A stretch of DNA of 62,696 bases, filler included, from Squatina squatina (Eukaryota), in the NCBI GenBank assembly GCA_031763465.1. It is 4 parts of 4 records of this genome, joined end to end, with 100 filler letters (N's around TTAATTAATTAA, not from the genome) between each part and the next. Parts side by side here need not be neighbours in the genome. Positions count along the whole stretch, not along the records: positions 50,676 to 62,696 come from JARFOE010000149.1; 3 more parts are not named here. One strand, given 5' to 3'. The notes under the pieces were generated by a model. That model was not told the origin of the DNA and did not search any database. It saw only the letters and a program-made list of their open reading frames with translations. This document shows positions 50,911-54,475 of the stretch, in pieces. Each line of letters opens with the position of its first letter. The stretch's first letter is position 1. The position numbers and the translations under genes were made by a program.

Positions 50911-51483
50911 ATCAGAGTATGTGTTAGTTTGGTCATTTTTTGTTGCTCCGAACTAAAAACTATAATAAAATTATGCAGGGAGGACTATTCAAAAGTGGAC
51001 ATTAAGAAGAAGCAATTTAAATTTGTTTGAACTTAAAGTTATAAATAACAACTGTGGTGAATGCAGAGTTGGTGAGTCCATGAAGTTTATTTACAATACA
51101 GTTCTGTAATTGCAGACCTTTGCAAATCCTGAACCTAAGCACCAAAATTACAGGTTATGAGCATTACAAATCAGGATCAGACACCATCTGCTAAACATGG
51201 CATCAAATCACCAACATGCACATTAAAACAATTATAAGCTGAAACTTAATATTTACCTGCAACTTTTGTTCGGATTTGCATATTCTCTTGNNNNNNNNNN
51301 NNNNNNNNNNNNNNNNNNNNNNNNNNNNNNNNNNNNNNNNNNNNNNNNNNNNNNNNNNNNNNNNNNNNNNNNNNNNNNNNNNNNNNNNNNGGTTAGTTGG
51401 AAGGGTTCGGAAGGGTCAAACTGAGGGAGACACACCATTCGGAAGCTGAGTTCACGCTGAGTCCAACGCCGTAAATGTTTGCT

Positions 51484-52668
51484 TAAAAAATCCATGAACG
51501 CCTTCTTTTAAAAATTCACATTTTATCGAAAATCACATTCTTTTCATTTAGCCAGGACTATCGCTTAAACCATGGCATAAATGCTGACAAATGACATGTT
51601 CACCGATTCGCCATGTTCTGTACTAAAATCTCTCACAGAAAGCAAAACCATGAGATAGTTTGTTTGGCTTCAGGGCTGCATGAAAGCTAAGCGCTCCCGG
51701 TTTCGGCACTACGGCGCCCTCACGCCCCGTCCCACTCGTAGAATCACCCTTCGCGACACGCGAGCTGCGCTCTGCGCGCCGCTGACCCGTCCTACGGGGC
51801 GAGTTTTCGGCCAGCCACGGCTAAACGGTGCATCGCATGTTGAAAAGTTAGCTCTGGCTACTAGACTTGCTATCTATGAAGATGGTGACAAAGTTCCAGC
51901 CACCTGCAGTCGCTATAAATAACACTTTAGGACAACTGAATACACCTATTTGCCATATGTAGCCTCTGACCGGGACTCGTGTGACGCGTCTGCGCCGGTT
52001 CAGCTCGGGTAACTTCCAGGCTGTACACAGTGTGACGTCAGAGGCGGCCGCGCCGGCCGCCGGCCGGTCAAGGTCAGATCGGGCTCACGCCACTCGCGCC
52101 TCAGGCGGCTACAATGTGAACGTAGGTACAGTCTCGAAAAGCAATGGGTCGGTGATGTCACTGTTGCTTTGTGGATCCCGGTCAGAGGCTACGTATGACA
52201 AATATGGTGCACTCAATGGTCCAAAAGTACCACTTATAGCGATCGGAGGTGGCTGGAACTTTGTCACGATGTTCACGGATAGCAAGGCTAGCAATCAGAG
52301 CCATATTTTTTAACATGCGATGCACCGTTTAGCCGTGGATGGCCGAAAGCCCGCCCCGTAAACCGGGTCGGCGGCGCGCAGTGCGCAGGTCGCGTGTCGC
52401 GAAGGACGATTCTACAAGTGAGACGCAGGCGGGAGGGCGCCGTAGTGCCGAAACCGGGAGCGCTCGGCTTCCATGCAGCCGTGCAACCAAACAAACTATC
52501 TCACGGTTTTGCATTCTGTGAGAGATTGTAGCGCAGAGCATGACGAATCGGTGAACATGACATTTGTCAGCATTTACGCCATAATTTACGTGACAGACCT
52601 GGCAAACTGAAAAGAATGATACTTTTGACAAAATGTTAATTTTTAAAAAAGGCCGTCGATGGATTTTT
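51484..52668. repeat. long imperfect inverted repeat / foldback element (arms ~51484-51977 and ~52173-52668)
   Basis: e.g. GCGCTCCCGGTTTCGGCACTACGGCGCCCTC from 51691 is the exact reverse complement of GAGGGCGCCGTAGTGCCGAAACCGGGAGCGC at ~52433-52463; alignment continues along both arms. Confidence 0.95.
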
Positions 52669-52989
52669 AAAAAATTTGCATTATAAAAGATTTACAGTTT
52701 CATAGATTTTTCCATTTCTACTCAGTATTATAAATCTTTAACCATGGGACTCTACAAGGAGTATTTGTTTAAAAAAGCTACATCATACCAAAAAATCTTC
52801 TGACTGGTAACTCATGAGCCACGTGCAGCTCCTGCTCCAAGCCCAGACAATGCAGCTTCTGAAACTTAATTTGTGCATTCCCTGATTTGGCCATTAATTT
52901 TACAGGCGTGGAGATTTTGCCTCGGTGATGGATATACCCTAGCTCAGAATACCAAGATCTGTTTGTATTAGCAACTTGATATACATGTA

Positions 52990-53675
52990 AATAAATGGAA
53001 ATTAATCTAAGAGGCCAGAGTTGGAGGGGTGAGATAAACAGTTTTAGCAAGGTTGCAAACAGTCTGGTTCAGCCAGATATAATGGCCAAGGAGGGAGATG
53101 GAATCCCTGGCAAAGAATCAGTTCGTGGTGGGGGTCAAAGACAATGGCTTTGGTCTACCCCATGTTTTCGGGAAGAAACTGGAGTTCACCCAGGACTGGA
53201 TGTCGGACAGGCAGTATGACAAGAGCCAGTGGAGGGGTTGGGAGGGTGTGGCGAAGTAGAGCTAGGTGCCTTCAGCATACATTTGGAACCGGACGTCACA
53301 TTGTCAGAGGGGCAGCATATAGGCAAGAAATGGAGCACTTCAGAGATAATGGTGCAGAGGCAAGAGAGAAGCCATTGCAGAAGATTGTATGGGTACAACT
53401 GGATAAGAGTCGAACCAGGTGAGGGCAGTCCCATTCAACTGGACGATGCAGGAGAGGTGTTGGATAAAGATGGTGCAGTCAACCGCAGCAAAGGCTGAAG
53501 ACACGTCGAGAAGGATGAGGGGGGAATAGTTTAACGCGGTCACTTGCGTCTTTGATAAGAGTTGTTTCAGTACTGTCGCATGGCAGAAACCTGATTGGAG
53601 AGATTCAAACATGAAGTTGCGGGAAAGACGGGCGCAGATCTGGGAGGCGACAACACATTCAAGGACTTGGAGAGG
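52990..53675 (-). mobile_element. L2-type LINE RT fragment
   Basis: VLECVVASQI..FESLQSGF..LILLDVSSAFAAVD...L....LNGTALTWFDSY. Confidence 0.8.
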
Positions 53676-53679
53676 AAAG

Positions 53680-54475
53680 GAAACAGAAACATAGAAAATA
53701 GGAGCAGGAGTAGGCCATTTGGCCCTTTGGACCTGCTCTGTCATTCAATACGATCATGGCTGATCCTCCAACTCAGTACCATGTTCCCACTTTCTCCCCA
53801 TATCCCTTAATGCCTTGAGTATCAAGAAATATATCTATCTCCTTCTTAAATAAGTTNNNNNNNNNNNNNNNNNNNNNNNNNNNNNNNNNNNNNNNNNNNN
53901 NNNNNNNNNNNNNNNNNNNNNNNNNNNNNNNNNNNNNNNNNNNNNNNNNNNNNNNNAAAGAGGCTGCAAAGGGATATAGATAGGTTAAATGAATGGGCAC
54001 AATATTCGCACATGGAGTATAATTTGGAAAAAATTCAGTATATCTACTTCTGTAGGAAAACTCTCAAAGCAGAATATTACTTAAATGGAGAGAAGCTACA
54101 GAATGTTGTGGTACAGAGTGATCTGGGTGTCCTCGTACTGGAAACACAAACAGTTGGTATGCAGATACAGCATTTACTTAGGAAGGCAAATGGAATGTTG
54201 GCCGTTATTGAGTGTAAAAGTAGGGAAGTCTTGCTACAACTGCACAGGGCGGTGGTGAGACCACGGCTGTGTGCAATTTCGGTCTCATTTTTCAGGAGCA
54301 ATATATTTGCATTGGAGGCAGTTCAGTAAAGATTCACCAGGTTGATTCCTGAGATGAAGTGTTTGTCTCATGAGGAAAGGCTGAGTAGGTTTGGCCTTTG
54401 CTCACTCGTGTTTAGAAGTTTGAGAGGTGATCTTATGGAATCATATAAGAGTCAGAGGGGGCTCGACAGGGAGGA
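53680..54475. mobile_element. CR1 tail (minus, 53680-53856) and CR1 ORF2 3' fragment (plus, 53957-54475)
   Basis: AACATAGAAAATAGGAGCAGGAGTAGGCCATT tail; YYLNGEKL..DLGVLV..KANGML..LEAVQ..LRGDL. Confidence 0.8.

What the first reader, a model, noticed from the sequence alone, without database searches (positions are those of the whole stretch)
51484..52668. CpG-rich 1.2-kb foldback element: ~500-bp imperfect inverted arms around a ~195-bp GC-rich core
Seen: the left arm (~51484-51977) and right arm (~52173-52668) are reverse complements along their whole length, by eye roughly 75-85% identical. TTAA occurs at both outer ends (51483-51486, 52667-52670). The core holds GTGTGACGCGTC, a CRE-like TGACGTCA (~52033), GCGGCCGCGCCGGCCGCCGGCCGG and a small hairpin AAAGCAA..TTGCTTT (52138-52170). 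The arms have diverged from each other, yet both keep dense CpG in a window that is otherwise CpG-depleted; a decayed methylated repeat would have lost CpGs first. Inference: either a young non-autonomous DNA transposon whose master already had long imperfect TIRs (TTAA would fit Kolobok or piggyBac; long TIRs suggest an undescribed foldback family), or an unmethylated, constrained element such as a bidirectional regulatory module or a long-hairpin RNA source. It matches none of the repeat families I recognise here.
Basis: partly seen in the sequence, partly recalled or inferred. Interest (0 to 1): 0.7.

Follow-up and report, generated by a model that had tools for sequence, protein, structure and literature searches.

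The report
Foreign marine transposon in shark assembly
The long mirror-image stretch is a broken copy of a non-coding jumping-DNA element that is abundant in a different marine animal whose DNA is also present in this shark assembly, so it is likely contamination joined to shark DNA, though a very recent jump into the shark is not excluded.

Summary
The foldback is real: the arms are 84% identical and CpG-rich. Its ends were misplaced. TTAA lies about 95 bp inside the arms and is no target-site duplication. The full element is about 1,375 bp, with ~590-bp imperfect arms ending CACGG...CCGTG, the signature of CMC (Chapaev-like) cut-and-paste transposons. This copy lacks 3 bp on the left and ~90 bp on the right. 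The family has only 5 loci in the 1.5-Gb host assembly but is very abundant in public run X1 (organism A), which lacks the host flank. One of the five loci, an unplaced contig, matches an X1 contig at 223 of 223 bases across an insertion junction, so organism-A DNA is in this assembly. The window copy shows no CpG decay (3 of 29 differences, against 18 of 50 in host rDNA pseudogenes). Best reading: a foreign non-autonomous transposon chimerically joined to shark DNA (0.6). A very recent horizontal transfer remains open (0.3), because the copy has private variants and lies in one contig with host DNA. No reads of the host were available. The scan had not noted this family before.

The parts
51291..51390 (.). 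100-N scaffold gap of unknown size; the first three bases of the element (CAC) are missing here
   Evidence: CAC precedes 51391 in an X1 contig (table 5c); no suffix-prefix overlap between the two contigs
51391..51977 (+).
   Evidence: L004, L005, L011; X1, X3 cover 51391-51476
51978..52172 (+). Non-coding GC-rich core (~195 bp); its first ~110 bp, with TGTGACGTCA, are shared with relative L004
   Evidence: spanned by X2 record 14; no Rfam match; no Pfam match in 5 open frames over the element
52173..52683 (-). Right terminal inverted repeat, cut short; the family sequence is lost at 52677-52683 and about 90 bp with the CCGTG end are absent
   Evidence: X3 record 18, 29 X1 loose ends behind 52677; L004 matches to 52683
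52684..52912 (.). Unique AT-rich, CpG-poor DNA, likely host; the junction with the element is the disputed join
   Evidence: no other match in G000; CpG o/e 0.26; no cover from 52719 on in X1, X2, X3, X10
52913..53856 (.). Host repeats, including a very abundant short repeat at 53685-53856 (SINE/LINE-tail type; label recalled)
   Evidence: 92 candidates, 40 scored; 11,357 candidates, 40 scored, 92-96% identity

Best explanation
This is a truncated copy of a ~1.4-kb non-coding element with ~590-bp inverted arms and CACGG...CCGTG ends, likely a non-autonomous CMC (Chapaev-like) DNA transposon native to another marine animal (organism A), and likely joined to shark DNA by a library or assembly chimera. 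In its home genome a DDE transposase supplied by an autonomous partner would bind the arms, cut at the CAC/GTG ends and paste the element elsewhere (inferred from the ends, the abundance and empty paralogous sites; no partner was found). Its CpGs are intact because it has not sat in the shark's CpG-decaying genome (inferred). Shown: structure, true ends, truncation, abundance in run X1, rarity in G000, organism-A DNA in G000, lack of CpG decay. Inferred: the superfamily, the mechanism of mobility, and that the join at 52683 is artificial.
For: (1) Ends: L004 and L011 both stop at CCGTG. X3 record 18 runs from the right arm into the reverse complement of 51476-51391 with 4 bases left; an X1 contig has CAC before 51391. 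Two X1 contigs match the L011 flank up to position 27/28 and then go on differently, as empty paralogous sites would (records 2, 3). CAC...GTG ends are the Chapaev hallmark (PMC4079192), and a CMC element with CACGG ends is described (PMC12810828). (2) Abundance elsewhere: 8,168 X1 contigs were laid on 51391-53856, summed depth 5,452-114,344 on the element, 0 on 52719-53631 and 168-1,682 on the host repeat. (3) Rarity here: 5 loci in 1.52 Gb. (4) Foreign DNA in G000: X1 record 1 (338 nt, depth 18) equals L011 1-223 with 0 differences across the element-flank junction. The 34 contigs reached through the element or through the repeats beside it have median CpG o/e 0.82, and 3 of 34 carry a host-type repeat. 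For 40 evenly spaced unplaced contigs the figures are 0.36 and 20 of 40. Flank-only values are 0.99 for L005 and 1.00 for L006. (5) X2, X3 and X4 hold trace depth (up to 32) of L011's other repeats too, so there the element travels with organism-A-type DNA. (6) No CpG decay: 3 of 29 majority differences from X1 are CpG transitions, with 9% expected without hypermutation, against 18 of 50 in three host rDNA pseudogenes (Fisher p = 0.017). (7) Both ends are missing and there is no target-site duplication. A similar host-to-foreign join in the middle of another small transposon occurs in L100.
Against: The copy lies in one contig with host repeats and has private variants along its whole length, which is what a true single-copy insertion at normal coverage would look like; X1 holds only 0.64 of its words. 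No second animal 18S was found (8 matches, 23 of 192 candidates scored; those compared match the host type), and the COX1 search gave only 2 broken hits. 0 of 40 sampled contigs carry organism-A-type repeats, and 5 loci are few for so abundant a family. L026 and L107 have intact ends of another A-type repeat beside CpG-poor DNA with host repeat fragments. The contig before the gap ends in unique DNA, and its last four bases, CTTG, fit the C..G pattern of the two known flanks. X1 does not cover L011 507-690, 1151-1242 or 1335-1374. The CpG test used 37 element rows of the 40 shown; 66 rows were not shown. Absence from scaffolds is weak evidence: only 10 of 78 host-repeat hits lie on scaffolds.
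Confidence: 0.6

Rival explanations
1. A real, very recent horizontal transfer: one copy from organism A's lineage entered this shark's germ line, by transposition or by capture at a DNA break, and lost its right end. The foreign contigs in the assembly are a separate matter.
For: One contig joins the element to host DNA. Private variants run along the copy. The left neighbour ends in unique DNA with a fitting 4-mer. Chapaev transposons have crossed between lampreys, fishes and insects at 79-99% identity (PMC4079192).
Against: It needs a coincidence: the donor's DNA also contaminates the assembly. The element is non-coding, both ends are broken, no TSD is seen and no second placed copy exists. 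Differences from the family show no CpG excess, so none need have arisen in the shark.
Confidence: 0.3
2. A resident shark family whose young copies collapsed in a short-read assembly, with X1 being another cartilaginous fish.
For: The assembly is fragmented (1,152,659 contigs), contigs under ~500 bp are absent from the 40 sampled, and X1 has some depth on the host repeat.
Against: X1 has no cover on 52719-53631 at 80% likeness and about 100-fold less depth on an 11,357-candidate host repeat than on the element; X2, X3 and X10 have none. The other four loci sit on CpG-rich contigs without host repeats.
Confidence: 0.05
3. A constrained, unmethylated regulatory element or long-hairpin RNA gene of the shark.
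For: Dense CpG, a CRE-like word kept in L004, a stable predicted fold (-477.6 kcal/mol as DNA, no shuffles), and two pieces in one RNA run, X10.
Against: No Rfam match. It is a many-copy family elsewhere. X10 is a seawater sample, and its contigs do not show transcription. Arm mismatches give G-U pairs in 14 (plus strand) or 32 (minus strand) of 73 cases, with no test of selection.
Confidence: 0.03

Closest known systems
Chapaev transposons (CMC supergroup; PMC4079192, part 1 of 6 and search passages read)
   Same: Inverted repeats with 5'-CAC and GTG-3' ends; non-autonomous derivatives; marine hosts; known to cross species.
   Different: No transposase here; TSD not readable; arms are ~590 bp against 11-19 bp for the Chapaev3 families listed in PMC3014272 (passages read); flanks do not fit TWA, so not Chapaev3.
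CNEST, a fungal CMC element sister to Chapaev and Mirage (PMC12810828, passages read)
   Same: Ends begin CACGG; its clade includes unclassified animal transposases.
   Different: 7.2 kb, autonomous, 33-bp arms, TA duplication; the two flanks read here begin CT.
Foldback-type elements (FB, Galileo, Tetris; recalled; Tetris seen only as a search listing)
   Same: Long inverted arms that can fold back around a short core.
   Different: No internal tandem modules in the arms; CAC/GTG ends point to CMC.
Contaminant transposons in assemblies, such as BovB in Haemonchus contortus (PMC6542046, passages read)
   Same: A repeat abundant in one animal turns up in another's assembly and mimics horizontal transfer; flanks and reads decide.
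   Different: Here one flank is host DNA within the same contig, and the read-level test could not be run.

Membership tests
CMC supergroup / Chapaev | Terminal inverted repeats with 5'-CAC and GTG-3' ends (PMC4079192) | tested here: met
   L004 and L011 end CCGTG; CAC precedes 51391 in an X1 contig; L005 reads GACGG at that place, so 2 of 3 G000 loci that reach the end are intact
CMC supergroup / Chapaev | 3- to 4-bp target-site duplication | tested here: inconclusive
   No copy with both flanks; single flanks read CTCG (L004) and CTGG (L011); the letters of the X1 empty-site contigs were not shown
CMC supergroup / Chapaev | DDE transposase with C(2)C and H(3-4)H motifs in an autonomous partner (PMC12730594) | not testable with these tools
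   The element is non-coding (0 Pfam hits in 19 frames, 5 of them over the element); no longer copy in viral, metagenome or prokaryote collections; no Chapaev protein was held as a query
Chapaev3 subgroup | TWA duplication between A and T | tested here: not met
   2 of 2 readable flanks begin CT (feature)
CACTA / EnSpm | CACTA motif at the ends | tested here: not met
   Ends are CACGG (feature)
Kolobok or piggyBac | TTAA target-site duplication outside the ends (recalled) | tested here: not met
   TTAA lies ~95 bp inside the arm and reads TTCA in L004 and L005
Transib / TransibSU | 5-bp duplication and RSS-like 7-bp ends (PMC4411706) | tested here: inconclusive
   Ends share CAC only; TSD length is unknown
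Foldback (FB/Galileo type) | Modular, internally repeated long arms (recalled) | tested here: not met
   No direct-repeat family of 20 nt or more with two copies in one arm
Already catalogued repeat (Repbase, Dfam) | Match to a library consensus | not testable with these tools
   No such library is offered; Rfam gave 0 matches
Horizontal transposon transfer | Reads or PCR link the element to host DNA on both sides | not testable with these tools
   None of the 14 runs listed holds all the words (best 0.64); only one side is linked, and only in the assembly

The most novel reading that the evidence does not exclude
A CMC-type transposon family with unusually long (~590-bp) imperfect arms, abundant in a marine animal, has very recently entered a shark germ line, a lineage reported to be poor in DNA transposons.
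Probability: 0.28. Interest if true: 0.55.

Novelty: new member of a known kind. Interest (0 to 1): 0.25.

Why it matters
Mostly as a warning: this assembly holds contigs of a second animal, some apparently joined to shark DNA, so CpG-rich oddities found in it need a read-level check. The element itself is a possibly uncatalogued non-autonomous CMC family with very long arms. If the insertion is real, it would be a near-contemporary transfer into a cartilaginous fish; the elephant shark mobilome is almost all retroelements (PMC4350176, passages read).

Tried and rejected
TTAA as target-site duplication: rejected. Structured RNA family: 0 Rfam matches at E <= 1. Coding: 0 Pfam hits in 19 frames. 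Viral or prokaryotic origin: 0 matches in viral contigs, metagenome contigs and prokaryote genomes, exact patterns only. Naming the foreign taxon through markers in G000: 2 broken COX1 hits, not examined beyond open frames; 18S hits of host type only; no tRNA gene in 13 loci. Summed contig depth is not a copy number; the ratio to depth 18 says only 'very many'. The contig-end test was uninformative (22 of 72 ends hit a repeat in a small sample). The host SINE control (ratio 3.3; 12 copies, 4 CpG sites) is biased by how sites were called, so the rDNA control is preferred. Literature searches; none of the listings describes this family, but they are word searches. The Yuan and Wessler 2011 paper was not held. 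Supplements were not read; those of PMC4079192 (TSD tables) could bear on the Chapaev subgroup. Earlier findings of the scan: nothing on this sequence or these words; one unrelated note for the contamination words.

Full report
Observation. The two arms exist as described. 51483-51977 aligns to the reverse complement of 52173-52671 at 421 of 500 columns, with 73 substitutions (46 transitions) and 6 gap columns; the score is 593 against at most -259 in 100 shuffles. CpG o/e is 1.16 over 51391-52683, against a median of 0.38 for the 40 gap-free pieces of the window; only the piece that holds the element reaches 0.8. The stretch lies at G000:C149:1052541-1053733, 92 bases after a 100-N gap.

True ends. 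A search of the host genome gave three partial relatives at 74-90% identity (L004, L005, L006), and a terminal pattern gave a fourth (L011). In the alignment TTAA is an internal word of the arm, read TTCA in L004 and L005, next to a 4-bp insertion in the window's left arm. L004 and L011 both end in CCGTG; L005 reads GACGG at the same place. In public contigs, X3 record 18 passes from the right arm (52433-52673) straight into the reverse complement of 51476-51391. 29 X1 contigs leave the window behind 52677 with the family's own continuation, and one X1 contig has CAC before 51391. The full element is therefore about 1,375 bp: two ~590-bp arms and a ~195-bp core. The window copy lacks CAC on the left and ~90 bp on the right. 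X2 record 14 spans both arm-core junctions with 6 other letters and 4 gaps in 497, so the architecture and the arm-to-arm divergence belong to the family and are not an assembly foldback.

What kind of element. CAC...GTG ends with a 3- to 4-bp duplication are the Chapaev hallmarks (PMC4079192). The wider CMCT group shares CA..TG ends and 2- to 5-bp duplications (PMC12730594, passages), and CNEST has CACGG ends (PMC12810828). Two X1 contigs carry the L011 flank up to position 27/28 without the element, as empty paralogous sites would. No copy has both flanks, so the duplication is unread; the two single flanks begin CTCG and CTGG, which excludes TWA, TA and TTAA. There is no Pfam match in 5 frames over the element (19 frames tested in all) and no Rfam match. 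No autonomous partner was found. It works like a non-autonomous CMC element; membership in Chapaev proper is not shown.

Where it lives. Of 14 runs listed, 12 hold part of the stretch, the best 0.64 of the words. In X1 (organism A) 8,168 contigs were laid, with summed depth of 5,452-114,344 on the element, none on 52719-53631 and 168-1,682 on a host repeat that has 11,357 candidates in G000. X2, X3 and X10 gave 16, 16 and 2 contigs, all on the element. Summed depth is no copy number, but the contrast with a single contig at depth 18 means very many copies. In G000 the DNA search and three patterns found 5 loci in all.

Foreign DNA in the assembly. X1 record 1 (338 nt, depth 18) equals L011 1-223 with no difference, across the junction of element and flank. 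Since X1 lacks the host's flank, L011 is DNA of organism A's kind. The repeats beside L011 lead to 14 more contigs, and one of those repeats has 25 matches, all on unplaced contigs. The 34 contigs so collected have median CpG o/e 0.82 and a host-type repeat in 3 of 34; 40 evenly spaced unplaced contigs have 0.36 and 20 of 40. This is partly circular, as the contigs were picked by CpG-rich repeats, but the flanks alone of L005 and L006 give 0.99 and 1.00. Absence from scaffolds counts little, since only 10 of 78 host-repeat hits are on scaffolds.

Has the copy lived in the shark? Of the 40 difference rows shown (66 were not shown), 37 fall in the element and 29 have the other letter in at least 66% of X1's depth. 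Of these 29, 3 are CpG-loss transitions and 1 is a CpG found only in the window; 9% is expected without CpG hypermutation and 29% at four times the rate (P = 0.017). Three host rDNA pseudogenes with the same CpG density have 18 of 50 (rate ratio 3.5; Fisher p = 0.017). The copy's differences therefore look as if they arose outside this genome. That argues against long residence but not against a very recent arrival.

The join. Right of 52683 come 229 bases of unique, CpG-poor DNA and then host repeats. Either a chimeric molecule or assembly path joined foreign and host DNA there, or the insertion is real. For a chimera: the proven foreign DNA, two broken ends, no duplication, no overlap with the left contig where graph neighbours overlap by 77, and a mid-element join of the same type in L100. 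For a real insertion: private variants along the whole copy, a single contig, a unique left neighbour whose last four bases fit the flank pattern, few family loci, none of 40 sampled contigs foreign, no foreign 18S, and intact foreign-type ends beside host-like DNA in L026 and L107. Read-level tests are what separate the two (PMC6542046), and no host reads were served. I put the chimera at 0.6, recent transfer at 0.3, a resident family at 0.05 and a regulatory or RNA role at 0.03.

Host and novelty. The host is a shark according to other notes on this genome (unchecked AI notes) and its repeat types (recalled). No earlier finding matches this sequence. Seven paper searches listed no description of such a family; Repbase and Dfam could not be searched. 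It is best filed as a new member of a known kind, of low interest unless the junction proves real.

Noticed in passing
L004-L006, L011, L015-L028, L092-L107: A set of 34 unplaced contigs (553-4,200 nt) with their own small transposons and GC-rich minisatellites, median CpG o/e 0.82; probably a second animal co-assembled in G000.
   Followed up: partly
L100 674-833; L026 1-61 and 643-765; L107 300-345 and 716-763: Three contigs join host-type repeats to organism-A-type repeats: mid-element in L100, at intact ends in L026 and L107. They are either further chimeras or real insertions.
   Followed up: partly
L005 6-14: A second CACGG-starting sequence with several CACGTG words behind it, possibly the end of another CMC element; single in G000.
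   Followed up: partly
window 51274-51281 and 52675-52682: The same 8-mer, ATTTGCAT, lies 9 bases before the end of the left contig and at the right junction; noticed after the fact and possibly chance.
   Followed up: no
L108 1-77 and L109 1147-1223: Two rDNA contigs overlap by exactly 77 bases, which suggests the assembler's word length; the element's contig has no such overlap with its left neighbour.
   Followed up: yes
L110, L113, L114: Dispersed 18S rDNA pseudogenes with CpG decay about 3.5 times the other substitution rate.
   Followed up: yes
L029, L030: Two broken COX1-like stretches with internal stops, probably nuclear copies of mitochondrial DNA.
   Followed up: no
L004 750-1032: A CpG-rich degenerate minisatellite built on CCGAC words flanks the relative's end.
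   Followed up: no
L018 about 330-420: A tRNA-like stretch, possibly a SINE head, in a foreign-type contig; ARAGORN calls no gene.
   Followed up: partly
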